Below, one piece after another: positions 1 through 54,094 of a stretch of DNA of 64,000 nt. The position numbers were made by a program, and so were the translations under genes. The notes beneath the pieces are model-generated. The model had not been told where the DNA came from and did not search any database. It saw only the letters and a program-made list of their open reading frames with translations. Numbering within the stretch: the first letter of the stretch is position 1; every line of letters starts with the position of its first letter. The stretch covers positions 12,640 to 76,639 of IMG/VR virus record IMGVR_UViG_3300047472_000231; one strand, written 5' to 3'. The DNA comes from a virus.

Positions 1-173
1 GTGAACACCCTCAGCAAGACCACGAACGCGCAGCGTGCGATCCAAACACCCCGCTCTTCGTACAAGCCTGTTCCGCCCCGCCGCACACCCGGCGACACGC
101 CTCGCTACAGCCGTGCCGCCGGCCGCGCGCACGGCGACCTCCTCCGCCGCAAGAACACCCGCACGAAGGACCA

Positions 174-2177
174 GTGATGACGACCGAAGCCACCCCTGAG
201 TTCCCCGCCGACTGGGACCTCACGAAGGTGATCCCCGGCGAGCTGCACGTGCCCGACGACCTGTCCGGCGAGGACATCGCGCCCGGCATCGTCGTCCCCT
301 ACGAGCCGCGCCTGCCCGCCCTGCGCACCGCAGGCTCGGCCGCCATGGTCGTCGCCGCGACAACCGGGCGGGCGTGCGGGCTCACCGCCCGCTGGTTCTT
401 CACCGGCACCCGCGCGGTCGGCTTCCTCGGCTGGCGCTACGTCCGCGCCCACGACCTCCAAGAGGTCATCGGCGGCATGTCGAAGGCCGGCGACTGGAAC
501 AAGGTCGACATCGTCCGCAAGAAGCGGTGGCGGATCCTCGGCTGGGCCGCCGGCATCACCGCCGGCCTCAACCTCGCCGGCTGGATAGCCCTCGCCTCCG
601 GTGCGGGCATGGACGCAGGCGGCGCAGCGATGGCCATCCCGCCCACCATCACCGGAGCTGTCGTCGCCGCGGCGGTCACCCTGTACGGCCGCTACCGGAC
701 CAACCGGCCCGAGCTCGCCCCGCAGATGATGATCGCCGATCAGGACGACCCCAACAGCGATGAGCCGTTCCCGCTGGCGCTCGCTACGTCGCCGGGCATG
801 GTCGAGGACTGCGTGTCCCGAGCCCTGGCCTGGGAGGGCATCGACGTCCGGCAGGTTCGCGCGCTCGGCTTCCACGGCAAGTTCTGGGAGATCGACGTGA
901 TCCTCAAGGGCTCCACCCCGGGCAAGGTCAATGCGGTCGCCGAGCAGCTGGACACCCACTTCAACATCAAGCAAGGCGGGACCCTGATCGACCCTGACCC
1001 GCAGCAGTCCGCGCACATCGTGCTGCGCCTCGTCACCGGCAACCCGTTCGACGACATGCCGAAGCCAGCCATCCACGCCCCGAACAGCCTAGACATCACC
1101 CAGGCGCACAACTTCGGCCGGTGCATGGACGGTTCCCTGCTCGACCTCGTCCTCGAGGGCCTGCGGATCCTCGTCATCGGCGTGTCCGGCGCCGCCAAGT
1201 CCACCGGCGTGCTGCGTGACCTCGCCGAGGTCATTACCGCCTGCCACAACGCGATCGCCATCGAGATGGACCCGGTCAAGGACGGGCTGCGTGAGTTCGA
1301 CGGCGCCATGGCCGTCCCGCCGATCCGCGGCACCAAGGCGTGCGAGGAGTGGCTCGAAAACCTGGTGAAGATGGCGAAGGGCCGTCAGGTCGTCCGGAAC
1401 CGGCTCAACATGGGCGACACGTGGGTGGCCACCCGGGAACGCCCGGCGATCTTCGCGCTGGTTGATGAGTTTATCTACCTCAGCCCCCGAGGGAAGGAGC
1501 TGTTCATCGAGCTTCTGCGGCTGGGGAAGCAGTCTGGGATCTACCCGATCGCCGCCGGGCAGGACGCCACCTCCGACGCCATGGGTGATGCGATCGCCGA
1601 CTCCTTCACCCTGCAGGTCATGCTCGCCTCCCGGTGGGACGACATCCGCATCGTGTTCGGGCAAGGTGCCGCCGCGAAGGGCTTCCGCCCCGACCGGCTT
1701 GTGCCCGCCCAGAACCGGCAGATAAAGAACGACGCCGGCCAGTCCTACATCAAGGGCCCCGGTCTGGATCGGCCGCTGCTGTACGGGTGGAACGAGCACA
1801 GCGGCGAGGCGATCAAGCGTGCCGTCGAAGCCCGCAAGCAGGCGGGGCGGCCGTGGTTCGACCGGGACACCCTCGCCGCCGCCGGCCTCCTGCACCTGGC
1901 CGATGGCGGGGCGGGGGAGCGGATCATAGGGGACCGGAAGATCGCGGCCGACTGCATGGCGGTCATGGCTGACGCGGGCGTGGACCGGATGAAGACCGAG
2001 GCGCTCGCCGAGGCGCTCGCCCAGTTCGCTCCGGACGCATACGGAGATCTGACGGCCGCCGAGCTGCGGGCGCTGCTGAAGGCGGCTGGGGCCGGGTCAC
2101 CGGTGACCCTCGGCTACCTCAACGGCGAGAACAACCCGCGCGGATTCAAGCTCGAAGCCCTGACTGCTTTGACCTAG
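174..2177 (+). CDS. TraB-like FtsK/SpoIIIE-family DNA translocase
   Basis: Two N-terminal hydrophobic segments; variant Walker A GVSGAAKST; Walker B FALVDEF; C-terminal wHTH-like tail (RMKTEALAEAL...NPRGFKLEAL) as in Streptomyces plasmid TraB. Confidence 0.8.
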   Translation: MMTTEATPEFPADWDLTKVIPGELHVPDDLSGEDIAPGIVVPYEPRLPALRTAGSAAMVVAATTGRACGLTARWFFTGTRAVGFLGWRYVRAHDLQEVIGGMSKAGDWNKVDIVRKKRWRILGWAAGITAGLNLAGWIALASGAGMDAGGAAMAIPPTITGAVVAAAVTLYGRYRTNRPELAPQMMIADQDDPNSDEPFPLALATSPGMVEDCVSRALAWEGIDVRQVRALGFHGKFWEIDVILKGSTPGKVNAVAEQLDTHFNIKQGGTLIDPDPQQSAHIVLRLVTGNPFDDMPKPAIHAPNSLDITQAHNFGRCMDGSLLDLVLEGLRILVIGVSGAAKSTGVLRDLAEVITACHNAIAIEMDPVKDGLREFDGAMAVPPIRGTKACEEWLENLVKMAKGRQVVRNRLNMGDTWVATRERPAIFALVDEFIYLSPRGKELFIELLRLGKQSGIYPIAAGQDATSDAMGDAIADSFTLQVMLASRWDDIRIVFGQGAAAKGFRPDRLVPAQNRQIKNDAGQSYIKGPGLDRPLLYGWNEHSGEAIKRAVEARKQAGRPWFDRDTLAAAGLLHLADGGAGERIIGDRKIAADCMAVMADAGVDRMKTEALAEALAQFAPDAYGDLTAAELRALLKAAGAGSPVTLGYLNGENNPRGFKLEALTALT

Positions 2178-2186
2178 AAAGTCCCC

Positions 2187-2338
2187 TGCTCAAGAGGTGC
2201 TCAACACTGCTCAACCGCAGGTCAGAGCCGCTCAATCACCTGCTCAAGCACGTGCTCAGCGAGATCGTGAGCAGGGCCTGAGCGGCACCTTGAGCGGCTG
2301 TGACCTGCAACGGAGCACCCCTGAGCAGTCGTTGAGCA
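2187..2338. repeat. Symmetric array of 12 YGCTCA(A/G)-type repeats (six forward, six inverted); clt-like cis-acting transfer locus candidate
   Basis: Forward copies at 2187, 2198, 2208, 2229, 2241, 2253; inverted copies at 2267, 2278, 2290, 2311 (degenerate), 2321, 2332; GCAGGTCA at 2217-2224 mirrored by TGACCTGC at 2301-2308. Confidence 0.8.
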
Positions 2339-2385: not shown

Positions 2386-3162
2386 ATGCCCGCGAAGCGT
2401 CAGCCGGCCCGCCGGACCACCCCGGCGAAGCGCCGCAAGCCGTCCGCCCGCAACCACCCCGCCCGCCGCGTCAAGATCCCCCGCAAGGGCCCGCTGCACC
2501 ACCAAATCGGCGCCCGCATGGTCCTGTTCGCCGTCTCCCACCTCGACACCCACGGCGACACCGTCCGCTCCCGCAAAGACGCCGCCATCCTCCGCGCCAC
2601 CCACAAGGGCTGCACCACCTGCCAGGGCAACGGGCAGATCTTCACCAAGGGCAAAGACGGCTCCTTCACCGGCTCCAAGCCCTGCCCAGCCAAACCCACC
2701 AAGGAGCGCGTCTCTCGGTGGGAGGTGTACAAGGCCAGCCGCTTCGGCGCCGACAAGAACACCGGTCTCGTCGGCTGGGCCTGCCCCTGCGGCAAGAAGG
2801 AGAAGCCCCGCTACCGCGACGCGAAGGAAGCCACCAAGGCCCTGCGCACCCACGAACGGCAGAAGCATGGCGGCAAGAGCGTCGGAGGCGCCTGGTACGC
2901 GCAGGCCACTGAGGGCGCCAAGCAGGCTGCAGACCCGAAGCCCGAGCCGATGCCGTCAAAGGTCGTCCCCAACTCCGGCATGACCGACGAGCAGTGGGTC
3001 GGCCAGAACAAGGGCATGCCCGTCGGTAAGGCCATCGCCAAGGGCAAGTGCTGGAAGTGCTCCGGCGAAGGCAAGCTCCACGGGACCTTCGGCAACGAGC
3101 AGATCCTTACCGTCTGCCCGGAATGCAGGGGCAGCGGCAAGCCGACGAAGGTCGCCGCCTGA
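2386..3162 (+). CDS. Basic Cys-rich protein with DnaJ-type CxxCxGxG zinc-finger repeats
   Basis: GAGGAG RBS before ATG 2386; CTTCQGNG, CWKCSGEG, CPECRGSG. Confidence 0.7.
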   Translation: MPAKRQPARRTTPAKRRKPSARNHPARRVKIPRKGPLHHQIGARMVLFAVSHLDTHGDTVRSRKDAAILRATHKGCTTCQGNGQIFTKGKDGSFTGSKPCPAKPTKERVSRWEVYKASRFGADKNTGLVGWACPCGKKEKPRYRDAKEATKALRTHERQKHGGKSVGGAWYAQATEGAKQAADPKPEPMPSKVVPNSGMTDEQWVGQNKGMPVGKAIAKGKCWKCSGEGKLHGTFGNEQILTVCPECRGSGKPTKVAA

Positions 3163-8879: not shown

Positions 8880-9701
8880 ATGACGGAGCCTACCTGCGCA
8901 GTCAACGGGTGCGACAGGCCGTCGCGCACGCGTGGCTGGTGCAATGCCCACTACCTGAAGTGGTATCGAACTGGCGACCCGGAATACCAACGACCTGCTC
9001 GCGTAAAACCTGCGTGTTCAGTGGACGGCTGTTTGCGTCCGGCGCACAGTCGGGGCTGGTGCAAGACGCACTACTTGCGATGGTGGTCAAAGAGCGACCT
9101 CGGCAAGGCGGCCATCCGGGCGTACAACAACGTACGAGCAGACTGCTCGTTCGACGGCTGCAACAACACGTCCAGTGCGGTCGGGTTGTGTGGTGGGCAC
9201 TGGAGGCAGCAGGCGAAGGGTCAGGCGCTACGACCGCTCAAGAGGAAGACCGATCCGCAGGCTCGGGACGACGCCGGCCGGAAATTGTGCGGCACCTGCG
9301 ACGGGTGGCTCCCTGTCAGTCGCTTCACCCGGAGCATCAGCCGATCGGACGGCCTGGCGGCGCGCTGTACCAAGTGCGAACGCAGTCAGGCGCTGAAGCG
9401 GAAGTTCGGGATCACTCTTGAACAGTACGAGGAGCTGCTTGAGGCGCAGGCTGGTGGCTGCGCTGTATGCGGAAAGACCCAGCAGGAGAACCGCCGCCGA
9501 CTTGCAGTCGATCACGACCACTCCTGCTGCCCCGGGCAGATCACTTGCGGCAGGTGCATCCGCGGCCTGCTGTGCAGCAGCTGCAACCTTCATTTCGGTG
9601 CGATAGGGGACAGTCTCACTCACATCGAGGCGATGGCGGCCTATCTCCGCTCCAAGACGAGCCTGGAGGGCGCCTGCCCAGTTGATGCGGATACGCAGTG
9701 A
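8880..9701 (+). CDS. Endonuclease VII-type HNH homing endonuclease with three N-terminal Cys/His repeats
   Basis: Repeats CxxxGC-x7-GWCxxH(Y/W); CAVC...LAVDHDH...IRGLLCSSCN; AAGGAG RBS. Confidence 0.85.
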   Translation: MTEPTCAVNGCDRPSRTRGWCNAHYLKWYRTGDPEYQRPARVKPACSVDGCLRPAHSRGWCKTHYLRWWSKSDLGKAAIRAYNNVRADCSFDGCNNTSSAVGLCGGHWRQQAKGQALRPLKRKTDPQARDDAGRKLCGTCDGWLPVSRFTRSISRSDGLAARCTKCERSQALKRKFGITLEQYEELLEAQAGGCAVCGKTQQENRRRLAVDHDHSCCPGQITCGRCIRGLLCSSCNLHFGAIGDSLTHIEAMAAYLRSKTSLEGACPVDADTQ

Positions 9702-11275
9702 CCGAGTACTTGCATGACCCGCGCACAGGTGAGCCGTACAACTCGGCGACCTTCGATCTGGACGACTACCTCGCGGGGATCGACGCGCGCCTCCTTGCAT
9801 CGAGCGAGGGCCGGAAGGTGCTCACCCGTCTTGATCCACTCCTGTTCGGCCTCCTCTACCTGCCCCACCACATGAAGGGGAAGCAGACCGGCGAACAGAT
9901 CACCCTCGCCGACTGCCACCTGGACTGGGCCCGCCGGGCTCTCCAGTGGGTCCGCCCCGTCACGGAACCGCGGAGCGCCCGAGACGTGTTCATCAGTCCG
10001 CGCGAGTCCGCGAAGAGCACATGGTGGTTCTTGATCATTCCGATGTGGGCTGCCGCTCATGGACTCGTGCGCTTTGTGGCTGCGTTTTCAGATAGCGCCA
10101 GCCAGAGCGAGACGCACCTGGCCACGTTCAAAGCGGAGCTCGACGGCAATCGGCTGCTACGCGAGGACTTCCCTAGCCTCACGAAGCCGGCCACCCGCCC
10201 CCGCGGCTCCGTTGTTGCCGACCGCCAGTCGCAGATCCAGATGGCGTCCGGGTTCACCTTCGCTGCGCGCGGTATCGACTCCGGCAACCTTGGCCTCAAG
10301 GTCGGTCGCGAGCGCCCGGATGCCTTGATCTGCGACGACATTGAGAGCGGGGAGGCCAATTACTCGATTCACCAGGCGAAGAAGCGACTCTCCACGCTGC
10401 AGAACGTGATCCTTCCCCTGTCGGAGTTCGCACGGGTGGTCGTCGTGGGCACCACCACCATGGCGGGAGGGCTGATTCATCAGTGCGTCAAGAGCGTCAC
10501 GACCACGGAGGAGCCCGCCGAGTGGATTAAGGAAGAGAAGTTCCGCGTCCACTACTACGAGCCGATCGTCAACACCGAGGCTGGCGAACGATCGATCTGG
10601 CCCGCCAAGTGGCCCATGAGCTACATGGTGCAGGTCCGTGCGACGCGCAGCTTCAAGCTCAACTTCCTGAACCAGCCGTCCAGCGCGAACTCCGATTACT
10701 GGACCGAGGGCGACTTCACCTACGGCCGCTTCCCGGTGGCCCGTACCTACCTGTCCGTCGATGGCGCTGTCACAACCAAGACGAAGTCGGACTACACGGG
10801 ACTGGCGGTTGTCGGCTGCGCCCCCGCGCGACCGGCGCGCGAGGGTAGCCGGGCCGTACCAGCGCGATGCCTGGTCGAGCACGCCGAGGCGGTAAAGCTG
10901 AAGGGTAGGGCGCTTCGGGATCGAGTCCTGCAGCTGCTGGATTCGTATCCGGAGATTGGCGCGATCCTCGTTGAGGCGAATCAGGGTGGGGACCTTTGGC
11001 ATGAGGTGTTCCATGACCTGCCGGTGCGGGTGGTCACCTTCTCGAACTCTGAAGCCAAAGAGGTCCGCGCGGCCCGCGTATTGAACCTCTACCAGCTGTT
11101 GCCCGCGCGTGTGGTCCATGCCGAGGCCCTGCCTGCCCTGGAAGAGCAGATGTGCGCGTTCCCGAATGGGCTCAACGATGACCTCGTCGACGCCGTGGGG
11201 AACCCGGTGCTGCGATTCCTGCGGCCCCCGCCCAGGAAGGCGCCTCCGTCGGCGGAGAGCGCCAGCTACGTCTAG
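9698..11275 (+). CDS. Terminase large subunit
   Basis: PRESAKST Walker A, LICDDIE Walker B, SVDGA and NDDLVDA nuclease motifs. Confidence 0.9.
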   Translation: MTEYLHDPRTGEPYNSATFDLDDYLAGIDARLLASSEGRKVLTRLDPLLFGLLYLPHHMKGKQTGEQITLADCHLDWARRALQWVRPVTEPRSARDVFISPRESAKSTWWFLIIPMWAAAHGLVRFVAAFSDSASQSETHLATFKAELDGNRLLREDFPSLTKPATRPRGSVVADRQSQIQMASGFTFAARGIDSGNLGLKVGRERPDALICDDIESGEANYSIHQAKKRLSTLQNVILPLSEFARVVVVGTTTMAGGLIHQCVKSVTTTEEPAEWIKEEKFRVHYYEPIVNTEAGERSIWPAKWPMSYMVQVRATRSFKLNFLNQPSSANSDYWTEGDFTYGRFPVARTYLSVDGAVTTKTKSDYTGLAVVGCAPARPAREGSRAVPARCLVEHAEAVKLKGRALRDRVLQLLDSYPEIGAILVEANQGGDLWHEVFHDLPVRVVTFSNSEAKEVRAARVLNLYQLLPARVVHAEALPALEEQMCAFPNGLNDDLVDAVGNPVLRFLRPPPRKAPPSAESASYV

Positions 11276-11374: not shown

Positions 11375-12916
11375 GTGGATGACGAGCGTGCCGACCTCAT
11401 GTACGGCATCGAGGAGCTCAACGAGGCGCGCCCCGGATATGACCAGGCGCAGACCTACTACGACGGCAAGGTCCCCGAGGTCTTCACCTCGACCCGGATC
11501 CGCCGCGCCCTCCGCGCGCACGGCATCGACTTCGACCTGAATTTTGCGAAGACGCCCGTCAATGCGGTCACGAACCGGCTGAAGATCGCGTCGATCACCA
11601 GCCCCGACGAGGCCACGAACACGCTGATCTCGCAGATCTGGCAAGACAACCAGCTCAACCTGGAGATGCCCGACCTGTTCCGTCGGGCCGGCGAGTTCGG
11701 CGACGCGTACCTGATGGTGCTGCCTGTCGAGGACGACAAGGGCAACGTCGTCCGCGTCGACATGTTCTACAACTCGCCTCAGACCGTGCGCGTGATCTAC
11801 AGCCAGGACAATCCGCGCCGCAAGGCGTACACGATCAAGAAGTGGTGTGACGGCCCCTATCACCGCGCCGAGTTGCTGTATGACGACCGGATCGAGCGGT
11901 GGACCACCGGCAAGAACTCGAACGGCGACAAGCCCGCCGACTGGATGCACTGGCTGGCCGACCCGGAGGATGGCGCCGCCGCCGACCCCGAATCGTGGAC
12001 CATCGACCACGACTGGGGCGAGCAGCCCGTCTTCCACTACCGCAACGACCGCCCCTACGGATGCCCGGAGCACTACGGCGCCTACGGCCCGCAGAACGCG
12101 ATCACCAAGCTGCAGCAAACCCACATGGGCACCGTCGACTACCAGGGCTTCCCGCAGCGCTACGCCCTCACCGAAGCCGCCAACACCGACACCTCCGACC
12201 TCGAGCCCGGCGACTTCGACGACAACGACTGGCCCCTCCCCGAGAAGGGAGTCGGCCCGAAGGACTCCGGCGACGACAGCTCCCTCAAGGCCGGGCCCGG
12301 CGAAATGATGCTGCTGCGCGGGTTCAAGGCTGTCGGCCAGTTCGATGCGGCACAGCCTGGCGTGTTCCTGGAGCCGATCAACTTCAACATCCGCGCGATG
12401 GCGCAGATCACCGACACGCCGCTACGGATGTTCGACCCGCAGTCCAGCCGCCAACGCTCCGGGGTCTCCTACCAGGAAGAGGACGGCCCGTTCATCAGCA
12501 AAGTCGAAATCCGACAGACGTCCTACGGAGCCGCGACGCACGAGGCGTTCACCTTCGCCCTGCGCCGCCTCGGAGTCATCGACCCGGTCCTGTCCGTGGA
12601 CTGGGTGCCCGCCAAGAGCGTCACGGACGCGCAGGGCTGGCAGACCGTCAACGAGAAGATCCGGGCCGGTGTCCCGCGCAGGCAAGCGCTCATGGAAGCC
12701 GGGTATCGGGCGGAGCAGGTCGACGAGTGGCTGACCGGGGTCGACGACTCCGAGCTGCAGCGCCGCGTCGACGTCCTCGCCAGTCTGGCGGACTCGGCTC
12801 AGAAGCTGGGCGCTGCCGCAGCTCTCGGCGTCATCAGCAGCGAGCAGGTGACCGCGCTGCTGTCCGGGACGATCGACGACCTCGAACTCCTCGCACAGGC
12901 GCAGGAGGAGGGCTGA
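11375..12916 (+). CDS. Portal protein (SPP1-like)
   Basis: YYDG...NFAKTPVNAVTNRL...FPQRY motifs; follows the large terminase. Confidence 0.85.
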   Translation: MDDERADLMYGIEELNEARPGYDQAQTYYDGKVPEVFTSTRIRRALRAHGIDFDLNFAKTPVNAVTNRLKIASITSPDEATNTLISQIWQDNQLNLEMPDLFRRAGEFGDAYLMVLPVEDDKGNVVRVDMFYNSPQTVRVIYSQDNPRRKAYTIKKWCDGPYHRAELLYDDRIERWTTGKNSNGDKPADWMHWLADPEDGAAADPESWTIDHDWGEQPVFHYRNDRPYGCPEHYGAYGPQNAITKLQQTHMGTVDYQGFPQRYALTEAANTDTSDLEPGDFDDNDWPLPEKGVGPKDSGDDSSLKAGPGEMMLLRGFKAVGQFDAAQPGVFLEPINFNIRAMAQITDTPLRMFDPQSSRQRSGVSYQEEDGPFISKVEIRQTSYGAATHEAFTFALRRLGVIDPVLSVDWVPAKSVTDAQGWQTVNEKIRAGVPRRQALMEAGYRAEQVDEWLTGVDDSELQRRVDVLASLADSAQKLGAAAALGVISSEQVTALLSGTIDDLELLAQAQEEG

Positions 12917-13932: not shown

Positions 13933-13986
13933 CCCCCGGGCGTCCGCGACGGACGCCGACAACCAACCCCGCGATGGGAGAACACG

Positions 13987-14682: not shown

Positions 14683-14817
14683 CCCCAAGAGGTATATTCA
14701 GCACCAGGTGAATTGTTCCGGTGATCGGAGCAGGCCGCCGCCCTGCTTTGCGAAGGCGCCCGTGATGGGGCCCGAGCCCAACAGCTTCCCCATCACGCCG
14801 CCCGCAGGAGGGCCACA

Positions 14818-15732
14818 ATGGCGCGCAATACGCTCGAGGCATGGATCCCAGAAGAGTGGGAGACCAGCCGCGTAGTCCAGTCCATCACCCAGATCTCCGC
14901 CGTTGAGTCGCTCGCCGCCCGCATTCCCATGGGCTCCGACACCAAGCACGTCCCCCGCACCGCGGGCATGGACGTCGCGGTCGTCGCCAAGGGCGGCACC
15001 TACGGCGAGGACACCTCCCTCAACGACGAAGTCCTGCTCTCCGCGATCAAGTTCGGCAAGGCCGCGCGCATCGCCGAAGAGGACATCGACGACTCCGTCG
15101 CCAACATCATCGAAGCGAAGATGATCGGCTGGGGTAAGTCCTACGCCAAGCTGATCGACAACGCCAGCCTCGCCGTCAGCGCGGCCAGCAACGGCACCAC
15201 GGTTCCGTTCACGTCGCTGTACCAGCTGCTGAACACCACCGACGCCACCCTCAGCTACACCGGCGGCGCGAACATCACCACCGCCGCATCCTCCGGCGCC
15301 CCGAGCTACGCGGAGTTCTCCACCGCGATCGGCAACGTCGAGTCCGGCGACTACTTCGACCCGGGCTCCATGGTCGCCATCGCGCACCCCGCGTTCCGCA
15401 AGAGCCTCCGCGGCGTCCTCGACTCCCAGAACCGGCCCATCTTCATCGAGGGCCTGTCCGGGACCCCTGACACCGTCTTCGGCGTCAACGTCCGTTGGAG
15501 CCTCGGCGCGAAGCTCACCGCGACCGCCACCTCGACGCCGACCGGGCGCGCACTCATGGCGTTCGTCAACCCCGAGCTGATGCTCCTCGGCGTCCGCTCC
15601 GGCCCCGAGTCGGTGTTCATCGACGGACGCGACGGCCTCAGCGCGCTGACCGACGAGTCGATCCTCAAGATGCGCGCCCGCCGCGGCTGGGCCTACGGCC
15701 ACCCCAACGGCGCATCCATCCTCGTCGGCTGA
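14818..15732 (+). CDS. Major capsid protein (HK97 fold)
   Basis: WIPEE, LDSQNRPIF, LKMRARRG motifs; position. Confidence 0.85.
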   Translation: MARNTLEAWIPEEWETSRVVQSITQISAVESLAARIPMGSDTKHVPRTAGMDVAVVAKGGTYGEDTSLNDEVLLSAIKFGKAARIAEEDIDDSVANIIEAKMIGWGKSYAKLIDNASLAVSAASNGTTVPFTSLYQLLNTTDATLSYTGGANITTAASSGAPSYAEFSTAIGNVESGDYFDPGSMVAIAHPAFRKSLRGVLDSQNRPIFIEGLSGTPDTVFGVNVRWSLGAKLTATATSTPTGRALMAFVNPELMLLGVRSGPESVFIDGRDGLSALTDESILKMRARRGWAYGHPNGASILVG

Positions 15733-15800
15733 CCATCCCTTCAATCCCCGCACCGCCCGACGGCTCCGGGCGGTGCGGCGGACAACCAGGGAGGTGAGCC

Positions 15801-16178: not shown

Positions 16179-16179
16179 C

Positions 16180-19241: not shown

Positions 19242-19585
19242 CCTGGACGGTCGGGCTGGCCGAACGGCTGGAACAGATCGTATGGGTCCTCGACCACCAG
19301 GGCGATATCGACGCCGACTTCCTCGCGATCTACGGCATCGACCTCTATGAGCAAGAGGTCGACGGGCCCCGCTACTTCGCCCTCGCCCACCGGCTGACCG
19401 CCTACCAGGGCGTGATGACCGCCCGCGTCGACCAAGAGCAAGACCAGACCAGCAGCACAACCACCCGCACCAGTAGCACCCAGCCCGCCCAACAGGGCGG
19501 CGGCGAGAACCGTGAGGTCTCGCTGACGGCGTTCCGGGTCATGTTCCCCGGAATCGTGAGCGGAGGAAGCGCAGGTGGCGGGTAG
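18846..19585 (+). CDS. Tail assembly chaperone -1 frameshift product (gpGT-like)
   Basis: GGGGGGAAAA at 19223-19232; -1 frame open to TAG 19583-19585 (IDADFLAIYGIDL). Confidence 0.75.
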
Positions 19586-22500
19586 CTTTCGCATAGCCGA
19601 GGGATACGTCGAGGTCAGTGCCGACGAGTCCGCCTACGACCGCGCCATGGCCCGCCTCAAGTCCAAGGACCAGCGGATCAAGGTCGGTGTCGACCTCGAC
19701 GACCGGGCTGCCCTCGCCAAGCTGGACCGCCTCGCCCGCGAGCGCATCATCACCGCCAAGATCAAGGTCGACGAGACGGCACTGTCCCGCCTCCGTCTGC
19801 GAGACCTCGACGTCACCGTCACGCCGAAGATGAACGACACGGCCCTCCGCCGCGTACAGGCGCAGTTGGACCGGCTCACCGCCGACCGCGTGGTCAACAT
19901 CCGAGCGAGCGTGGACACCCGGGTCGCCGCGGCAGAGATCCGCAACCTCATCCAGCGCCGTCAGGTCCGCATCGGCGTCGACGTCGACACCCGGGTCGCC
20001 GCCGATGAGATCAACAACCTGACCCGGCGACGCACCGCACGCATCGTCGCCGACGCCGACACGGCAGCTGCACGTGCTCGCCTCGACGCCCTGGCCCGCG
20101 ACCGCCACGCCAACGTGCGCGTAGACGTCGACCGGTCCGCACTGTCCAGCCTCGGAGGAGGCGGGGGAGGACTTGGCGGGCTCGTCTCAAGCCTGACCAG
20201 CCTCTCCAGCATCGCCGTCGGCGCACTGCCCACCGTGGCATCCCTGGGGCAGGCCATCATCCAGATGGGGCCCGCCGCAGCCGTCGCCGCGCCCGCCGTG
20301 CTGTCGCTCGGCGCAGCCTTCACCGCAATCAAGATCGGCACCAGCGGTATCGGGGACGCGTTCAAGGCGGCGTTCGCGCCGGCCACAGCCAGCGCGGGCG
20401 CGGCCACCAAGAGCATCCGGCAGGTCGAGAACGCGCAGCGCTCCCTCGCCAAGGCCCAGCAGGGCGTGAAGGACGCCGAGGTCAACGCCGCTGCGGCACG
20501 GGTGCAGGCGGCCCGGCAGATCGAGGACGCGCAGCGCTCCCTCAAGTCGACCGTCTCGGATGTGGCGGACGCCAACCGGCGCGCAGCCGAGCAGGTCGCG
20601 CAGGCCGAGCAGGATCTCACCGACGCCCAGAAGTCGGCCCGGCAGGCACAACTGGACCTGACCGCGGCCCGCAAGGACGCTGCCCGCCAGCTCGAAGACC
20701 TCGCCAACCAGCAGAAGGATGTAGAGCTCGACCGGCGCGAGGGAGTCCTCCGCGTTCAGGATGCCCAGGACGAGCTGAACAAGACGCTCGCCGACCCGAA
20801 GGCCACCCAGCAGCAGCGGGCCGAGGCGCAGCTCACCTACGACGAAGCGGTCCAGCACCTGCAGGAGGTTCAGCTCCAGCAGGATCGGCTGACGAAGGAT
20901 GCGGCCGACGCGAACAAGGCCGGCGTCGAGGGCTCGAAGCAGGTCACGGACGCCAAGGCCAAGGTTGCCGACGCCAACCAGACGATCTCCGACAAGACCC
21001 GGGCGTTGAAGGACGCGGAGATTGAGGCGTCCCGCACGCAGGTTGAGGGCGCACAGAAGGTCGCCGACGCCGAACGCGCGGTCGCTGACGCCCGCGAGGC
21101 GGCCCGCAAGGCAGCCGTCGACGGTGCACGGCAGATCGCCGACGCGCAGGCCGCCGTCGCGGACGCGGCCCGCGCCATGGCCGACGCACAGACGTCCGGT
21201 GCTGCGGCGACGAACAAGGTCGGCACGGCCCTGGCGAAGCTCGCACCAAACGCGCGGGCCTTTGTCGACGCGGTCCTCGCCCAGCGGGAGGCCTGGCGCG
21301 GCCTCAAGCTCGACGTGCAGAACGCCCTGTTCGCCGGGCTCGGGCAGACGTTCACGACTATGTCGGCGGCCATCCTGCCGTCGCTGCGCACGGGCCTGAC
21401 CGGCACGGCAACCATCCTCAACCAGACGGCGAAGAACGCCGCGAGCGCAGTCACCGAGCTCGGCAAGACGGGGATGCTGCGACGGTTGTTCGATGGCCTC
21501 AACGAGGGGATGAAGCCGCTCACGCGGATCCCGGGTCAGTTCATCACCGGCCTCACGCAGATCTCCGTAGCCGCCTCGCCCGCGTTCAAGCGGCTCACCA
21601 CCGCGGCGGGCGGAGTCGCCGACACCATCTCGAAGAAGCTCGGCGACGCGTTCAAGAGCGGCCGGATGGCCGACGCCATCAACACCGCCGTAGGCATCGC
21701 CAAACAGTTCGGGCGCCTGATCGCGGACATCGCCGGAACGATCGGCAACGTACTGAAGGCAGCCGCAGCCGGCGGCGGGGACGCCCTCGGCGCGATAGGC
21801 GAGGCCTTCAAAGAGCTCCGCAAAATCACCGCCATGCCGGAAGTGCAGAAGGCCCTCACGAGCATCTTCACGGCGATCAACTCCATCGCGAAGCTGCTGG
21901 CTGGCACGCTCGGCGCGGTGATTCAGGCGGCACTCCCACTGCTCGCCGCACTCGCGCCCGTCGTAACCGAACTCGCCCAGAAGTTCGCGCCGGTGCTGGC
22001 CGATCTGGCGACATCGCTGGGCAAAGCCCTGATGCCGATCATCGAAGCGCTGCTGCCCGTGGTGAAGGACGTCGGTGGCGTCCTCGTCGGCCTGGTGCAG
22101 GCGGTCATGCCGCTGCTGCAGCCCATCGGCAACTTGATCGCCACCGTCGTCAAGGCGATCGCACCGTTCATCAAGACCCTGCTCGACGCCCTCGTCCCGT
22201 TCGTCGCCATGCTGGCCCAGGCCCTCGTGCCGATCTTCGCCGCGCTGCTGCCAGCGGTTCAGCTGGTGGGCCAGTTCCTTGCCGCGATGGCCCCGCTGTT
22301 CCCGCAGCTGCTGACGGCGCTGACGCCGCTACTTCCGCCGCTCGGGCAGCTCATTACGGCGCTGCTGCAGCTGGCAATGCAGGTGATTACTCCGCTGATG
22401 CCGCTGGTCACCGGTCTGGCGACGTTGCTGGCGACCGTGCTGGCTGGGGCGGTCAACCTGCTGGTGCCCGTCATTACGACGGTGATCGGCTGGCTCACGG

Positions 22501-24218
22501 CCCTCGCCGACGGGGTGAAGAAGGTTGTGGGCTGGATTGTTGACGCCTTCCAGTGGCTGTACGACAAGCTCGTCGGGCACAGCATCATCCCGGATATGGT
22601 GCGGGCGATCATCTCGTGGTTCGGGTCGCTGTGGACCGGCACGAAGAAGATCTTTACCGACCTGAAGAACTGGGTCGTGAGCACGTGGAACAGCCTGTGG
22701 GATGGCGTGCGCACGAAGTGGAACAGCTTCTGGTCCGGTCTGAAGTCGGCGATCTCCGGGGCGTGGACGACCGTGCGGAACGGCGTGTCCGACCTCAAGA
22801 ACGGCGTCACGAACACGTGGAATAACCTCTGGAATGGGGCCCGCGACAAGATCTCGTCGATCTTCTCCACGATCAACGGGAAGATCAGCACGTTCAAGTC
22901 CAGCATGAAGACGGCGTTCTCAACCTTGCGCGACAGCCTGGGAACGATCTGGGACGGCGTGAAGTCGAAGATCGCCTCACCGGTCCGGTTCGTTGTGAAC
23001 TCGGTCTACAACAACGGCATCCGCAAAATGTGGAACTCCATCGCCGGAAAGATCTCCAGCAAAATCACGCTGCCTCCGGTTCCCCTCAACTTCAACACCG
23101 GCGGCGTCGTCCCCGGCTCCGGGAACAAAGACACCGTCCCCGCAATGCTCACCCCCGGCGAACGCATCCTCTCCAACAGCCAAGTCGCCGCACTCGGCGG
23201 CCACCGCGGCATCGACGCCATGCTCGGCACAGACCGCCCCACCAAGACCGGCGGCAACCCGACCAGCCAGCAAGAACGCAAACGCCAGCAGGCCACACCC
23301 CACTTCGGGCACGGCGGCATCGCCGGGACCATCGGGACCATCGGCAGCGCCATCGGAGGCGCCGTCAGCTCCGCCGCCTCCTGGACGAAAGACCTCGTCC
23401 TCGGCGGGCTGAAGGCCGCCGCGCAGAAGGCGCTCTCGGCTCTCGTCCGGCCGCTCATCAACCAGATCCCGGGCAGTGGCATCGGCAACCTGATGCGCGG
23501 GCTGAGCAACAAGGCCGTCGACGGGATGTTGTCCTGGTTCACCACCGAGGACAAGAAGGCAGTCGGCGGCCCCGCCGTACAGCGGGCGTTGTCGTGGGTG
23601 AAGACGCAGAACGGGCTGCCCTATCAGTGGGCCGGCAACGGGAACCCCAGCTGGGACTGCAGCGGTCTGATGAGCGCCATCGAGTCCGTGATCCGCGGAG
23701 AGCACCCGCATCGCCGGTGGGCAACGGGTGCGTTCTCCGGATCGAGCGGCCCGCCCGGCTGGGTCCGCAACCTGAACTCACCATTTGAAATCGGGATCAC
23801 GAATGCGGGAGTCGGGCACACCGCGGGCACTCTTGCCGGAATGAACGTCGAAAGCAGCGGCGGGCGCGGCGTCCACATGGGCAAGAGCGCCCGCGGCTAC
23901 AACGACAGCCTGTTCACCTCGCGCTGGGGGTTCGCCCCGGCCGCCAAGTTCGACAGCGGCGGGTTGTTGCAGCCCGGGGCGACGATGTCCGTCAACGCCA
24001 CCGGCCGCCCCGAGCGGGTCCTGTCGGCGGACCACACGGCCAAGCTCGACGCGATGCTGGCCAGCTCCGGCGCGGGCGGCCCGGTCACCATCCAGGAGAT
24101 CAACATCAGTGGGACGTTCGACTTCTCCAGCCCCGCTAGCCGTCGGGCCGCCGCGAACGCGATGGTCGCCGAGATGAAGGAAGCCATCCGTCTCTACGAC
24201 AAGGCGAGGGCCCGATGA
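19575..24218 (+). CDS. Tape measure protein with a C-terminal NlpC/P60-like domain
   Basis: 1547 aa; Ala-rich coiled coil and Trp-periodic repeats; PYQWAG...WDCSGL...GHT. Confidence 0.9.
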   Translation: MAGSFRIAEGYVEVSADESAYDRAMARLKSKDQRIKVGVDLDDRAALAKLDRLARERIITAKIKVDETALSRLRLRDLDVTVTPKMNDTALRRVQAQLDRLTADRVVNIRASVDTRVAAAEIRNLIQRRQVRIGVDVDTRVAADEINNLTRRRTARIVADADTAAARARLDALARDRHANVRVDVDRSALSSLGGGGGGLGGLVSSLTSLSSIAVGALPTVASLGQAIIQMGPAAAVAAPAVLSLGAAFTAIKIGTSGIGDAFKAAFAPATASAGAATKSIRQVENAQRSLAKAQQGVKDAEVNAAAARVQAARQIEDAQRSLKSTVSDVADANRRAAEQVAQAEQDLTDAQKSARQAQLDLTAARKDAARQLEDLANQQKDVELDRREGVLRVQDAQDELNKTLADPKATQQQRAEAQLTYDEAVQHLQEVQLQQDRLTKDAADANKAGVEGSKQVTDAKAKVADANQTISDKTRALKDAEIEASRTQVEGAQKVADAERAVADAREAARKAAVDGARQIADAQAAVADAARAMADAQTSGAAATNKVGTALAKLAPNARAFVDAVLAQREAWRGLKLDVQNALFAGLGQTFTTMSAAILPSLRTGLTGTATILNQTAKNAASAVTELGKTGMLRRLFDGLNEGMKPLTRIPGQFITGLTQISVAASPAFKRLTTAAGGVADTISKKLGDAFKSGRMADAINTAVGIAKQFGRLIADIAGTIGNVLKAAAAGGGDALGAIGEAFKELRKITAMPEVQKALTSIFTAINSIAKLLAGTLGAVIQAALPLLAALAPVVTELAQKFAPVLADLATSLGKALMPIIEALLPVVKDVGGVLVGLVQAVMPLLQPIGNLIATVVKAIAPFIKTLLDALVPFVAMLAQALVPIFAALLPAVQLVGQFLAAMAPLFPQLLTALTPLLPPLGQLITALLQLAMQVITPLMPLVTGLATLLATVLAGAVNLLVPVITTVIGWLTALADGVKKVVGWIVDAFQWLYDKLVGHSIIPDMVRAIISWFGSLWTGTKKIFTDLKNWVVSTWNSLWDGVRTKWNSFWSGLKSAISGAWTTVRNGVSDLKNGVTNTWNNLWNGARDKISSIFSTINGKISTFKSSMKTAFSTLRDSLGTIWDGVKSKIASPVRFVVNSVYNNGIRKMWNSIAGKISSKITLPPVPLNFNTGGVVPGSGNKDTVPAMLTPGERILSNSQVAALGGHRGIDAMLGTDRPTKTGGNPTSQQERKRQQATPHFGHGGIAGTIGTIGSAIGGAVSSAASWTKDLVLGGLKAAAQKALSALVRPLINQIPGSGIGNLMRGLSNKAVDGMLSWFTTEDKKAVGGPAVQRALSWVKTQNGLPYQWAGNGNPSWDCSGLMSAIESVIRGEHPHRRWATGAFSGSSGPPGWVRNLNSPFEIGITNAGVGHTAGTLAGMNVESSGGRGVHMGKSARGYNDSLFTSRWGFAPAAKFDSGGLLQPGATMSVNATGRPERVLSADHTAKLDAMLASSGAGGPVTIQEINISGTFDFSSPASRRAAANAMVAEMKEAIRLYDKARAR

Positions 24219-25858: not shown

Positions 25859-25861
25859 CAA

Positions 25862-32917: not shown

Positions 32918-32918
32918 G

Positions 32919-35615: not shown

Positions 35616-36428
35616 ATGGCCACACAGCACAGACAGCTCGGCCGCCACGTCGAACACGACCCCCGCAGCCTCCAGTTCGCCCACGGCGTCCTACCGAAGA
35701 CCGCCATCAAGACGGTCGACTGGACCCGCAGGGCGCCGATCTTCGACCAAGGCCAACTCGGCAGCTGCACCGGAAACGCTGCGGCCGGACTCCTCGGGAC
35801 CGACAGCGCAGCCCGCACCGGCCTCACCTCGGCGACGATCGGCGACAGCGTCGTCCCCGTCGACGAAAACCTCGCGGTGAAGGTGTACGAGCTGGCCACG
35901 CAACTGGACGGCATCAAGGGCACCTACCCGCCCGACGACACTGGTTCGTCCGGCATAGGCGCGGCGAAGGCCCTGAAGAAACTCGGCCTCGCCGTCTCCT
36001 ATACGCACGCGTTCAGCCTCGACGCCCTCAAGTCCGCCCTACAGACAGGCCCGGTCATGGTCGGCACGGTCTGGCTGGAGTCGATGTTCGACCCCGACCC
36101 GACAACCGGGTTCGTGAAGGTCGACCGCAAGAGCCAGGTCGCCGGCGGCCACGAGTACGTGCTCTCCGCCTACGACGCCACCCGGCAGGCGTTCCGCATC
36201 GACAACAGCTGGGGCGACTCCTGGGGTGTACGCGGGTCCGCCTGGTTCCAGGAGTCGGACGTCCAGTGGCTCCTCTCCCAGCAAGGCGACGTCACCGTCC
36301 CCGCCTGGGTCACCGCACCGGCACCCACCCCTCCTCCATCGCCCGCTCCTGCTCCGGATCCTCGACTGGTTGAGGTCGTGGCTCTGATGCAGGCGTGGGC
36401 GCGCGACAACCACGTGACGGGAGCCTGA
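35616..36428 (+). CDS. Papain-like (C1) cysteine peptidase
   Basis: DQGQLGSCTGNA (Q/C), GGHEY (H), DNSWGDSWG (N). Confidence 0.85.
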   Translation: MATQHRQLGRHVEHDPRSLQFAHGVLPKTAIKTVDWTRRAPIFDQGQLGSCTGNAAAGLLGTDSAARTGLTSATIGDSVVPVDENLAVKVYELATQLDGIKGTYPPDDTGSSGIGAAKALKKLGLAVSYTHAFSLDALKSALQTGPVMVGTVWLESMFDPDPTTGFVKVDRKSQVAGGHEYVLSAYDATRQAFRIDNSWGDSWGVRGSAWFQESDVQWLLSQQGDVTVPAWVTAPAPTPPPSPAPAPDPRLVEVVALMQAWARDNHVTGA

Positions 36429-36430
36429 CC

Positions 36431-37327
36431 ATGCCTGAGCTCTGGATGCCGGGCGCGACCCGGCTCGATATAGGCGACCACGCCGCAACCGACGGCGGCC
36501 CCGCGAAAGCGATCGCGCACATCACGTGGGACAAGAACGCGACCGCCGCGAAGCCGATCGACCTGGTGCCCTACGAGAACCTGCGCGCCTACTTCTCCGA
36601 GGGCGGCAAGACCGTCGCCCCGCACATTCTCTGGGACCCGTTCGGCGGCAGGTTCACGCAGTTCGTGCCCGCCAACTCCCGCTCGAAGAGCCTGGTCGAC
36701 CTGGCCGGCGGAACCCGGACCAACCGGGCGGGCTCCGTCGTCATCCAGATCGAGGCGCTCTTCTTCCCCTACTGCCGCGTCGGGAAGGCCGTGTACCCGA
36801 GGCTCGCGGACACCCCGTGCAAGGGCTGGGACGAGCTGCACGCCTGGGTGAAGAGCTGGGGCGTGCCGGACGCGTGGCCCAACGGCAGGCCGGAGAACTG
36901 CACGCGCGACGAGCACACGTGGGAGACCAAGGCGGGCTACTACCCGCACAAGGGCACCCCCGAGAACACGCACGACGACCCGCTGACCTGGCCCGCGTTC
37001 CCGACCGTTGCGCCGCCCGTAACGCCTCCCGCCGCCAAGCCCAAGGTCTCGCTGGCGCACGTCATCTACGCCGCCCGCCACGACCCGGCCGCAGCGCAGG
37101 GCCACACCACCTACCGGGCCGAAGTCCTCCTCGTCGAGAAGGCGCTGCACGCCGAGGGCCTCCTGGCGACGCAGTACGTCGACGGCAGTTTCGGCACGAG
37201 GACCATCTCGGCCTACGCCGCCCTCCAGCGCCGCTACGGCTACTCCGGAGCTGCCGCCGACGGCATCCCCGGCAAGGCCTCCCTGTCGAAGCTCGGCAAC
37301 GCCCACGGCTTCATCGTCACCGACTGA
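36431..37327 (+). CDS. Endolysin: amidase-like domain plus peptidoglycan-binding domain
   Basis: AHITWD...HKGTPENTHDDP; VDGSFGTRT, ADGIPGKASL. Confidence 0.8.
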   Translation: MPELWMPGATRLDIGDHAATDGGPAKAIAHITWDKNATAAKPIDLVPYENLRAYFSEGGKTVAPHILWDPFGGRFTQFVPANSRSKSLVDLAGGTRTNRAGSVVIQIEALFFPYCRVGKAVYPRLADTPCKGWDELHAWVKSWGVPDAWPNGRPENCTRDEHTWETKAGYYPHKGTPENTHDDPLTWPAFPTVAPPVTPPAAKPKVSLAHVIYAARHDPAAAQGHTTYRAEVLLVEKALHAEGLLATQYVDGSFGTRTISAYAALQRRYGYSGAAADGIPGKASLSKLGNAHGFIVTD

Positions 37328-39267: not shown

Positions 39268-39539
39268 CCGAGCCCTACGACCCGCTGCCAGATCTCATCG
39301 ACCGCGCCGAGAAGCGCCCCGACGGCATAGGGCAACTCAAGGACCTCGCCCGACTCGCTCTCCACTGGCACCGGGCTGAACTCGGCTGGGCGACCGACGG
39401 TGTCACGAAGGACCCAGAGACCGGAGAGCTGATGTACACGCTGTCCACTGGCTGCGCCTGCGGGTCTGGAGAGTTCCCCTGCCGCGCACGACGCCAGATC
39501 ACGGCCATCTTCGGCGTGGAAGAGAAGGAACGCCGGTGA
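39264..39539 (+). CDS. Hypothetical protein
   Basis: Coupled GTGA overlaps on both sides. Confidence 0.55.
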   Translation: MTEPYDPLPDLIDRAEKRPDGIGQLKDLARLALHWHRAELGWATDGVTKDPETGELMYTLSTGCACGSGEFPCRARRQITAIFGVEEKERR

Positions 39540-54092: not shown

Positions 54093-54094
54093 CT

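What the first reader, a model, noticed from the sequence alone, without database searches (positions are those of the whole stretch)
174..2338. Tailed phage carrying a TraB-type conjugation module (translocase plus clt-like site): candidate conjugative phage or phage-AICE hybrid
Seen: a 667-aa membrane FtsK-family ATPase with a C-terminal wHTH-like tail, followed within 10 bp by a dense array of short repeats. It shares the element with a full terminase-capsid-tail-lysis set, integrase, a second recombinase with a dif-like site, a ParB-like gene and an iteron origin. Known: Streptomyces plasmids and AICEs move dsDNA between hyphae using one TraB that binds ~8-bp repeats (TRS) in an adjacent clt locus. 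Inference: the circular phage genome could spread by TraB-mediated transfer as well as by virions, bypassing receptor- and particle-directed defences. Caveat: Walker A has Ala in place of the second Gly (GVSGAAKS).
Basis: partly seen in the sequence, partly recalled or inferred. Interest (0 to 1): 0.9.

Follow-up and report, generated by a model that had tools for sequence, protein, structure and literature searches.

The report
Plasmid-type DNA pump inside Streptomyces phage
A temperate tailed phage of soil Streptomyces carries, as a built-in and widely conserved part of its genome, the membrane DNA pump (TraB) and the docking repeats (clt) that Streptomyces plasmids use to push double-stranded DNA between hyphae, so it may also spread without virus particles; this is untested, and one lab-studied precedent (plasmid-phage pZL12) exists.

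Summary
Window 177-2177 encodes a 666-aa membrane-anchored FtsK/TraB-type ATPase. Ten bases after its stop lies a 150-bp mirror-symmetric array of 6+6 (T)GCTCA(A) units (2187-2338).

- The protein is homologous to pIJ101 Tra, to the traB region of plasmid pFP1 and to pZL12.71c.
- The array architecture recurs after nearly every homologue. Its short motif changes by lineage together with the protein's C-terminal winged-helix-like domain. One wing residue tracks the motif: T with GCTCA, P/S with GCTCG, Q with GCTA.
- The module is not an adjacent AICE. No integrase lies from -12.6 to +37 kb, and two complete circular relatives (61.9 and 90.6 kb) hold TraB together with terminase and tape-measure genes.
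- Of 401 sampled Streptomyces species genomes, 24 carry a homologue. In at least 15 of 22 informative loci it sits 5-20 kb upstream of phage packaging genes.
- The Walker A Ala is clade-wide, and dN/dS is about 0.3.

A phage with a working tra locus is already known (pZL12, 2010). This scan has made the same kind of finding on other genomes before. ParB-like and iteron claims were not confirmed. Verdict: a real, widespread new variant of a known kind.

The parts
1..177 (+). 3' end of a 442-aa integral-membrane protein gene. It starts 1,151 bp before the window (L003 11488-12816). It is DUF2637/SpdB-like and translationally coupled to traB.
   Evidence: Weak Pfam DUF2637 match, 0.0024. It is 25% identical (E 1e-14) to the DUF2637 protein that precedes traB on plasmid pFP1. 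It has several hydrophobic segments. It is conserved upstream of TraB in all 15 related loci.
177..2177 (+). TraB-type dsDNA translocase, 666 aa. It has an N-terminal membrane anchor, an FtsK-like alpha/beta motor (about 200-570) and a C-terminal winged-helix-like domain (579-666). Walker A is GVSGAAKS at 335-342.
2187..2338 (.). clt-like array. Six (T)GCTCA(A) units on the + strand start at 2188, 2199, 2209, 2230, 2242 and 2254. Six inverted units start at 2269, 2280, 2292, 2313, 2323 and 2334. An inner inverted repeat GCAGGTCAGAGCCGCTCAA / TTGAGCGGCTGTGACCTGC lies at 2217-2235 / 2290-2308. A perfect 12-bp outer inverted repeat lies at 2194-2205 / 2331-2342.
   Evidence: The architecture is conserved and the motif is lineage-specific in relatives.
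2386..3162 (+). Conserved downstream gene of the cassette: a basic 258-aa protein with a DnaJ-type CxxCxGxG zinc ribbon.
   Evidence: Pfam DnaJ_CXXCXGXG at 1.5e-5, below the curated cutoff. It is conserved after TraB in all related loci. It shares the zinc motif with the 258-aa gene that follows traB on pFP1.
9698..11275 (+). Terminase large subunit, 7.5 kb downstream of traB on the same strand.
   Evidence: phrog_38 3.8e-52
11375..12916 (+). Portal protein.
   Evidence: phrog_104 7e-55
14818..15732 (+). Major capsid protein.
   Evidence: phrog_10 1.3e-18
19575..24218 (+). Tail tape measure protein, 1547 aa.
   Evidence: phrog_6090 9.5e-134
35616..37327 (+). Lysis genes: a cysteine-peptidase-like protein and a protein with a peptidoglycan-binding domain.
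   Evidence: Both Pfam hits are weak. The genes are shared with pZL12 and G003.
39536..40678 (+). Xer-like tyrosine recombinase.
   Evidence: Pfam Phage_integrase 8e-14 plus SAM_1
44070..45362 (-). Tyrosine integrase. It lies mid-contig with phage genes on both sides.
   Evidence: Pfam Phage_integrase 2.5e-14

Best explanation
Window 177-2177 plus 2187-2338 is a functional TraB-clt DNA-transfer module of the Streptomyces plasmid type. It is embedded in the rightward operon of a temperate siphophage.

Proposed mechanism (inferred):
1. After excision or during episomal replication, TraB hexamers anchor in the hyphal membrane.
2. Their C-terminal winged-helix domains dock on the helically phased GCTCA units of the clt.
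3. The FtsK-like motor pumps the circular double-stranded phage genome into a neighbouring hypha or compartment.
4. The DUF2637 (SpdB-like) membrane protein and the small conserved cassette genes help intramycelial spread.
5. In the recipient the genome integrates or goes lytic.

Shown here: protein family and fold, a cognate protein-DNA pairing by co-variation, purifying selection, and that the module is a conserved integral part of many phage genomes.

Inferred: DNA binding, pumping, and transfer of the phage genome.
For: Homology:
- A family profile matches pIJ101 Tra (98.8%, E 6.8e-17) and pZL12.71c (98.3%, E 1.6e-14).
- The protein is 34% identical over residues 188-666 to the traB region of conjugative plasmid pFP1. 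pFP1 has the same DUF2637 - TraB - array - zinc-ribbon layout and no phage genes.

Fold: the FtsK motor is the best match.

The array as a clt:
- The same architecture follows the stop codon in 15 related loci, in pFP1 and in most of 25 genome loci. The repeated word differs by lineage (GCTCA, GCTCG, GCTA, GTCTA, GTGACG, CTCTAC and others).
- The C-terminal domain switches class with the word.
- Residue 644 tracks the word in 16 loci spanning 31-100% identity: T with GCTCA, P/S with GCTCG, Q with GCTA.

Selection: dN/dS is 0.25-0.38. Walker A GVSG[AS]AK[ST] is conserved in 113 of 120 close homologues.

Integral to phage genomes:
- The circular relatives G008 and G003 carry TraB together with TerL and TMP; G003 also has a portal and a capsid gene.
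- At least 15 of 22 informative Streptomyces loci have packaging or structural genes 5-20 kb downstream.

Against: - There is no experimental evidence for this element, and no RNA holder is listed.
- No GntR/KorA-type regulator, which usually controls traB on plasmids, was found near the cassette.
- The canonical Walker A glycine is replaced by Ala.
- The winged-helix assignment rests on the full-length AlphaFold model and on weak VIA matches (Z 4.0-4.6). Foldseek and sequence searches of the isolated domain found nothing.
- The module's position just before the late genes, and the presence of related pumps in strictly lytic 130-kb Streptomyces phages, fit a role inside the infection cycle as well as they fit conjugation.
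Confidence: 0.6

Rival explanations
1. The same machine serves the phage's own cycle inside one mycelium rather than conjugation between strains. It would move replicating or prophage DNA across cross-walls into neighbouring compartments or pre-spores. That would be a 'movement protein' or segregation role that enlarges the infected or lysogenised territory before lysis.
For: - The cassette is co-oriented with the packaging genes and lies directly upstream of them in most relatives.
- Strictly lytic BE-type phages (Coruscant, NootNoot and others) keep a 36-38% identical pump core.
- A DUF2637/Spd-like partner is conserved. By my own knowledge of Spd proteins, this partner class acts in intramycelial spread on plasmids.
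Against: - The nearest characterised relatives (pFP1 traB, pIJ101 Tra, the pZL12 tra locus) act in intermycelial transfer (the titles of Zhang 2008 and Zhong 2010 as seen).
- The Coruscant gene has no adjacent array, so the lytic-phage pumps may work differently.
- The two roles are not exclusive.
Confidence: 0.27
2. The module is plasmid-derived cargo picked up by recombination. It gives the phage no transfer function: it is either inert or has been re-used, for example for exclusion of other elements.
For: - Modules are clearly shuffled. G261 has the window's structural genes (portal 81%, capsid 87%) but a TraB only about 33% identical.
- Conversely, G008 and G003 share the window's TraB cassette but have different structural modules.
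Against: - Purifying selection acts on the gene.
- The cassette and its position are conserved across many different phage backgrounds.
- The DNA motif and the C-terminal domain co-evolve within the close clade.
Confidence: 0.06
3. The array is not a clt. It would instead be a packaging (pac) site bound by a small terminase, resembling the repeated hexamers of P1 pac, or an RNA hairpin or terminator between two genes.
For: - It lies upstream of the packaging genes.
- It is a 150-nt near-perfect palindrome with a folding z-score of -8.2.
Against: - The same array follows traB on pFP1, which has no packaging genes.
- Units within one arm are identical words at helical spacing, which pairing alone does not require.
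- The word co-varies with TraB's own C-terminus.
- There is no T-tail and no terminator-like hit.
Confidence: 0.04
4. Bases 1-2400 belong to a separate AICE or integrated plasmid lying next to the prophage.
For: The contig is linear and estimated 84% complete, so its ends are not defined.
Against: - No integrase was found from 12.6 kb upstream to 37 kb downstream of traB.
- No flanking direct repeats bracket the module.
- Complete circular relatives contain both the cassette and phage genes.
- The integrase sits mid-contig with phage genes on both sides.
Confidence: 0.03

Closest known systems
pZL12 / phiZL12, Streptomyces plasmid-phage (GQ919031; Zhong et al. 2010, J Bacteriol 192:3747)
   Same: - It is a tailed-phage genome of about 90 kb.
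- An FtsK-like gene (pZL12.71c) with two upstream partner genes lies just before terminase and portal, in the same order and orientation as here.
- The two pumps are homologous at profile level (98.3%).
[quoted passage not shown]
   Different: - There is no BLAST-level similarity between the two pumps.
- Only the lysis genes and two short segments of unassigned ORFs match.
- pZL12 is a ParAB plasmid-prophage. This element has a tyrosine integrase, and many relatives are integrated.
- pZL12.71c is not followed by a repeat array.
traB region of Streptomyces conjugative plasmid pFP1 (NC_006912; Zhang et al. 2008, Appl Environ Microbiol 74:3368)
   Same: - It is the closest cassette: DUF2637 protein, TraB (34% identical over residues 188-666), a palindromic array with the same GCAGGTCAG...CTGACCTGC core, then a 258-aa zinc-ribbon protein.
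   Different: - pFP1 is a 39-kb plasmid with ParA, a GntR regulator and a MobF relaxase, and it has no phage structural genes.
- Its repeat word is CTCTAC.
- That its traB is the functional transfer gene is recalled from the paper's abstract; the paper itself is not held.
TraB/clt of pSVH1 and Tra/clt of pIJ101, pJV1 and pWTY27 (Reuther 2006; Vogelmann 2011; PMC3583192)
   Same: - One membrane FtsK-like ATPase with a C-terminal DNA-binding domain recognises short repeats (7-9 bp) in a clt at or after the 3' end of its gene.
- The family profile matches pIJ101 Tra at 98.8%.
   Different: - Pairwise identity to pIJ101 Tra is only about 25% over 210 residues.
- The array here is strictly mirror-symmetric, 6+6 units.
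- Walker A has Ala in place of the last Gly.
- The host replicon is a phage.
FtsK-like DNA translocases of lytic 130-kb Streptomyces phages (Coruscant, NootNoot, Jay2Jay; phrog_12531)
   Same: - They are 36-38% identical over the motor core, residues 190-566.
   Different: - The matches stop before the C-terminal domain.
- The Coruscant gene is followed directly by another ORF, with no array.
- The literature treats these genes as manipulators of host development.
Chromosomal FtsK/SpoIIIE
   Same: - The motor fold is the same.
   Different: - The Pfam FtsK_SpoIIIE model is not reached by this protein, and is reached by only 5 of 48 family members.
- The membrane anchor is short.
- The DNA-recognition domain is different and has its own adjacent target array.

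Membership tests
TraB/Tra translocases of Streptomyces conjugative plasmids and AICEs | FtsK/SpoIIIE-type hexameric motor domain | tested here: met
   Profile versus PDB: FtsK 2IUS at 6.6e-17. Foldseek: FtsK motor at 9e-16, TM 0.65-0.71. hhalign versus pIJ101 Tra: 98.8%. Hexamer formation was not tested.
TraB/Tra translocases of Streptomyces conjugative plasmids and AICEs | N-terminal membrane anchor | tested here: met
   AlphaFold predicts long helices at 55-175. Hydropathy is 1.48 for residues 150-171 and 0.85 for 117-141. This is prediction only.
TraB/Tra translocases of Streptomyces conjugative plasmids and AICEs | [quoted passage not shown] | tested here: inconclusive
   In the full model, residues 579-666 have helix-strand-helix-helix-hairpin topology at pLDDT 89-98. 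For the isolated domain, Foldseek gave no match with E <= 0.001 and the sequence profile gave no hit below E 0.2. VIA wide gave Z 4.0-4.6, with nearly all top rows being winged-helix domains.
TraB/Tra translocases of Streptomyces conjugative plasmids and AICEs | Adjacent clt made of short repeated recognition words | tested here: met
   There are 12 units of a 7-mer within 152 bp, starting 10 bp after the stop. The architecture is conserved in relatives.
TraB/Tra translocases of Streptomyces conjugative plasmids and AICEs | Specific pairing of each TraB with its own repeat word | tested here: met
   The test is by co-variation only. The C-terminal class and residue 644 track the word across 16 loci. 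Binding was not tested.
TraB/Tra translocases of Streptomyces conjugative plasmids and AICEs | Canonical Walker A GxxGxGK[ST] | tested here: not met
   The motif is GVSGAAKS, and the Ala is conserved in 113 of 120 close homologues. Distant relatives have G[SA]GK[ST]. The Lys and Ser/Thr are kept and dN/dS is about 0.3. I read this as a clade variant, not decay.
TraB/Tra translocases of Streptomyces conjugative plasmids and AICEs | Required in cis and trans for conjugal dsDNA transfer | not testable with these tools
   This needs mating assays.
pZL12-type plasmid-phage | Complete tailed-phage gene set plus an FtsK-like tra locus on one replicon | tested here: met
   Shown for this window and for the circular relatives G003 and G008.
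pZL12-type plasmid-phage | Autonomous plasmid maintenance (repA/iterons, parAB) | tested here: inconclusive
   No ParA, ParB or Rep family was found among about 45 ORFs scanned. The contig is incomplete and many ORFs have no family match. An integrase is present instead.
AICE (actinomycete integrative and conjugative element) | Compact int-rep-tra unit (about 9-25 kb) bounded by att repeats | tested here: not met
   The nearest recombinase genes are 37 kb (Xer-like) and 42 kb (integrase) from traB, beyond the structural genes. No bracketing direct repeats were found. The functional logic (integrate, excise, pump dsDNA) is nevertheless AICE-like.
Phage pac site | Repeat array recognised by the packaging machinery of a phage | tested here: not met
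   The same array follows traB on plasmid pFP1, which has no packaging genes.

The most novel reading that the evidence does not exclude
This clade of TraB pumps with their clt sites may be primarily a phage system rather than a plasmid one. It would be a standard 'movement module' that lets temperate Streptomyces siphophages pass as naked double-stranded DNA from hypha to hypha and across cross-walls. That route would bypass receptors and particle-directed defences. The module would also carry a simple, evolvable recognition code: one wing residue (T, P/S or Q at position 644) sets the fifth base of the docking word.
Probability: 0.35. Interest if true: 0.8.

Novelty: new variant of a known kind. 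Interest (0 to 1): 0.58.

Why it matters
If the module works as in plasmids, a sizeable group of temperate Streptomyces phages has two transmission routes: virions and TraB-driven dsDNA transfer. These phages are found in about 6% of sampled species genomes.

That would blur the line between prophage, AICE and plasmid. It would offer a route around receptor loss and extracellular defences. It could also mobilise host DNA that carries clt-like words.

So far this lifestyle rests on one studied element, pZL12. The present data suggest it is common and modular. They also give a concrete, testable protein-DNA specificity rule for retargeting TraB.

Tried and rejected
- Pfam and NCBIfam gave nothing for the pump. 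A single-sequence PDB search gave nothing.
- Megablast of 25 kb against isolated phages found no match. The portal matches isolated phages only at 31-35% identity and matches no plasmid.
- Direct BLAST of the pump against pZL12.71c was not significant. Only the profile comparison linked them.
- My first attempt to extract the pFP1 traB ORF picked the wrong frame; one search corrected it.
- The isolated C-terminal domain folded poorly (pLDDT 66). Foldseek and a sequence profile gave no significant match.
- Sequencing runs: the stretch is held by rhizosphere and soil metagenome runs; no RNA holder is listed.
- The papers of Zhong 2010 (PMC2897331) and Zhang 2008 (PMC2423013) are not held. Their details beyond titles and citing sentences come from my memory.
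- ParB and iterons were not found in the ORFs scanned.
- Seven of the 22 informative survey loci showed no phage genes. My panel and one PHROG scan are limited, so this does not show absence.
- Rejected readings: adjacent AICE, pac site, terminator (see the rival explanations).
Full report
**Where the window lies.** The window is bases 12640-76639 of a 76,639-bp IMG/VR virus record. The record is linear and CheckV estimates it 84% complete. G+C is 64-72% throughout. I laid down the whole record and fetched the 12.6 kb upstream as L003.

**Observation.**
- The frame 174/177-2177 is open. A GC3 frame plot shows that a separate upstream gene (L003 11488-12816, 442 aa) ends at window 177, overlapping the start GTGATGA.
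- The database copy of the protein is 666 aa, so the start is ATG 177.
- Ten bases after the stop an array begins. Ten of the 41 window matches to BGCTCAR lie within 152 bp, against an expectation of about 0.1.
- Counting degenerate copies, there are six forward units and then six inverted units, spaced 10, 11 or 12 bp apart, with one double gap in each half.
- Each double gap holds one arm of an inner inverted repeat, GCAGGTCAGAGCCGCTCAA / TTGAGCGGCTGTGACCTGC.
- As a single strand, the 166 nt fold into one long hairpin (z -8.2). There is no T-tail and no terminator-like hit.

**What the protein is.**
- Pfam and NCBIfam do not recognise it. PHROGs places it in phrog_12531, 'FtsK/SpoIIIE-like', at 6e-66.
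- An exhaustive search of 1.8 billion cluster representatives found only 189 relatives. This is a small actinomycete family.
- A 48-sequence alignment (A1) matches FtsK motor domains (2IUS 6.6e-17), EccC and TcpA in the PDB. Only 5 of the 48 members reach Pfam FtsK_SpoIIIE.
- The AlphaFold model has mean pLDDT 84.6, and above 94 for residues 200-570. Its best structural matches are FtsK motor domains (Foldseek 9e-16, target TM 0.65-0.71), followed by the conjugation coupling protein TcpA.
- The profile aligns to the prototype Streptomyces conjugation protein, pIJ101 Tra, at 98.8% probability (E 6.8e-17). Pairwise identity is only about 25%.
- The N-terminus has long helices, one clearly hydrophobic (150-171) and one weaker (117-141).
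- In the full model, residues 579-666 have the topology helix, strand, helix, helix, hairpin, at high confidence.
- Folded alone with a shallow alignment, the domain was poor. Foldseek and a sequence profile found nothing. The Foldseek-independent search gave only Z 4.0-4.6, but almost every top row is a winged-helix domain. I therefore call the winged helix likely but not demonstrated.

**Walker A.** More distant relatives have G[SA]GK[ST]. dN/dS against six relatives is 0.25-0.38. The gene is under purifying selection, so the Ala is a clade trait.

**The array is the pump's own target.**
- I extracted the sequence after the stop codon in 15 related loci, in plasmid pFP1 and in 25 Streptomyces genome loci.
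- Nearly all show the same design: direct short units, a central inverted repeat containing GCAGGT...ACCTGC, then the same units inverted.
- The unit itself differs by lineage: GCTCA, GCTCG, GCTA, GTCTA with GGCTA, GTGACG, CTCTAC, GATCAG, GACGCATC and others.
- The C-terminal 80-100 residues switch class in step with the unit. Alignments to the GTCTA group end near residue 565, while those to the GCTCN group run to the end.
- Within the class ending NPRG[FY]K, one residue at the start of the wing (T644 here) tracks the unit. T goes with GCTCA in 7-8 loci, P or S with GCTCG in 5 loci, and Q with GCTA in 3 loci. These loci have pump identities to the window ranging from 31% to 100%.
- Within the close clade (at least 78% identity) both switches occur, with all twelve units changed together.
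- Identical words repeated at helical spacing, changing in concert with a residue of the adjacent gene's DNA-binding domain, is what a cognate protein-site pair predicts. A terminator hairpin does not predict this.
- The same array follows traB on pFP1, which has no packaging genes. This excludes a pac site.

**The cassette.**
- Four genes are conserved together in all related loci: a 98-aa protein, the 442-aa membrane protein, TraB, and a basic 258-aa zinc-ribbon protein.
- pFP1 has the same order: a DUF2637 protein (25% identical, E 1e-14), traB (34% identical over residues 188-666), the array, and a 258-aa protein sharing the CxxCxGxG motif.
- pFP1 is a conjugative Streptomyces plasmid whose 'replication and conjugation loci' were characterised by Zhang et al. 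2008 (title seen). From memory, its traB was the major functional transfer gene; the paper itself is not held.

**Is the module part of the phage?**
- The window holds a large terminase, portal, capsid and tape-measure gene 7.5-22 kb downstream on the same strand. It also holds lysis genes, an Xer-like recombinase and a tyrosine integrase.
- No integrase lies from 12.6 kb upstream to 37 kb downstream of traB. No direct repeats bracket the module.
- The integrase sits mid-contig with phage genes on both sides. This suggests the contig is an unintegrated form.
- Thirteen IMG/VR contigs of 13-91 kb carry homologues.
- Two of these records are classed as having direct terminal repeats and being 100% complete. 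They have exact 27- and 29-bp end overlaps, so they are circular assemblies.
  - G008 (61,903 bp) is a contig that also appears as a Streptomyces cellulosae record. It has TerL at 24614-26392, TMP at 12533-16732, a tail protein, an endolysin, and TraB at 32831-35206.
  - G003 (90,552 bp) has TerL, portal, capsid, TMP, and TraB at 71587-73686.
- Their structural modules differ from the window's, while the TraB cassette is shared. Four other records are classed as proviruses.

**Unbiased survey.**
- Of 401 Streptomyces species genomes, 24 (25 loci) have a match at E <= 1e-30.
- I fetched up to 40 kb downstream of each locus. I searched them with a panel of structural proteins and ran one PHROG scan of long ORFs.
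- Fifteen of 22 informative loci have terminase, portal, capsid or tape-measure genes 5-20 kb downstream in the same orientation. These are G323, G171, G372, G011, G222, G036, G285, G251, G050, G093, G194, G351, G037, G083 and G261.
- Seven loci showed none with these limited tests. Three contigs were too short.
- G261 has the window's structural genes (portal 81%, capsid 87%) but a pump only about 33% identical. So modules are exchanged.
- This pump clade therefore lives mainly in temperate siphophages.

**Prior art.**
[quoted passage not shown] 2010; title seen). [quoted passage not shown]
- Its annotation shows an FtsK-like gene (71c) with two large upstream genes, lying just before the terminase-like and portal-like genes. 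This is the same layout as here.
- The two pumps share no BLAST similarity but are homologous at profile level (98.3%).
- pZL12.71c has no array after it. pZL12 carries ParAB rather than relying on an integrase.
- The lytic 130-kb Streptomyces phages carry a 36-38% identical pump core. It has no adjacent array in Coruscant. The literature treats it as a development-related gene.
- I found no paper describing the widespread phage-borne TraB-clt cassette.
- Earlier agents of this scan reached the same reading on other genomes. I consulted those notes after my own analysis, and they agree.

**Mechanism and confidence.**
- I am confident (about 0.9) that this is a TraB-clt module integral to the phage.
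- That it moves the phage genome between hyphae is inferred from homologues (about 0.6).
- A role in spread or segregation within one mycelium is a serious rival, and not an exclusive one (about 0.27).
- No GntR/Kor-type regulator was seen near the cassette. It lies in a long rightward operon downstream of a divergent 400-aa HTH_31 regulator. Expression is therefore probably tied to the phage's own switch.

Noticed in passing
window 2217-2235 and 2290-2308; same position in L004-L018, L022 and L032-L054: The inner inverted repeat of the array keeps a nearly invariant core (C)GCAGGTCA(G/C) ... (C/G)TGACCTGC(G/A). This holds across pumps only 30-35% identical and on plasmid pFP1, while the flanking units change. 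It may be a second, conserved recognition or loading site.
   Followed up: partly
window 63784-64000 versus L003 1057-1282: The last 217 bp of the contig are a diverged copy of the promoter-proximal part of the 408-aa gene at L003 1102-2328, differing by a 9-bp indel and a few mismatches. The upstream sequences differ. The assembly probably broke at a paralogous repeat, so the true genome end or closure is unknown.
   Followed up: partly
L003 9046-9576; window 3048-3668; window 50881-51309: Three paralogous DUF6197 proteins are present in one phage genome, two of them flanking the TraB cassette.
   Followed up: no
window 31901-34459, minus strand: A glycosyltransferase (GT1 family) and an NAD-dependent sugar epimerase/dehydratase are inserted between the tail and lysis genes, on the opposite strand.
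   Followed up: no
window 53753-55075: A phiC31 Gp3-like 'recombination directionality factor-like' protein (Pfam 2e-43) sits in a phage whose recombinases, as far as found, are both tyrosine-type.
   Followed up: no
L086 (G261:C2:1229039-1249038): A chromosomal prophage has the window's structural module (TerL 52%, portal 81%, capsid 87%, TMP 67%) but a TraB only about 33% identical. This is direct evidence that the transfer cassette and the virion module are exchanged independently.
   Followed up: partly
L057 (Streptomyces phage Coruscant 73077-74921): The FtsK-like gene of this lytic phage lies among tRNA genes. It is followed at once by another ORF, with no repeat array. The match to the window pump ends before the C-terminal domain.
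   Followed up: partly
L087 11388-13622 (G280): About 10 kb downstream of a distant TraB homologue lies a second 745-aa FtsK/SpoIIIE-like ATPase (phrog_24831, 5e-234). No terminase was found with my panel.
   Followed up: no
L003 7032-8136: About 1.1 kb without a convincing ORF separates the divergent 400-aa HTH_31 regulator from the start of the operon that contains the TraB cassette.
   Followed up: no
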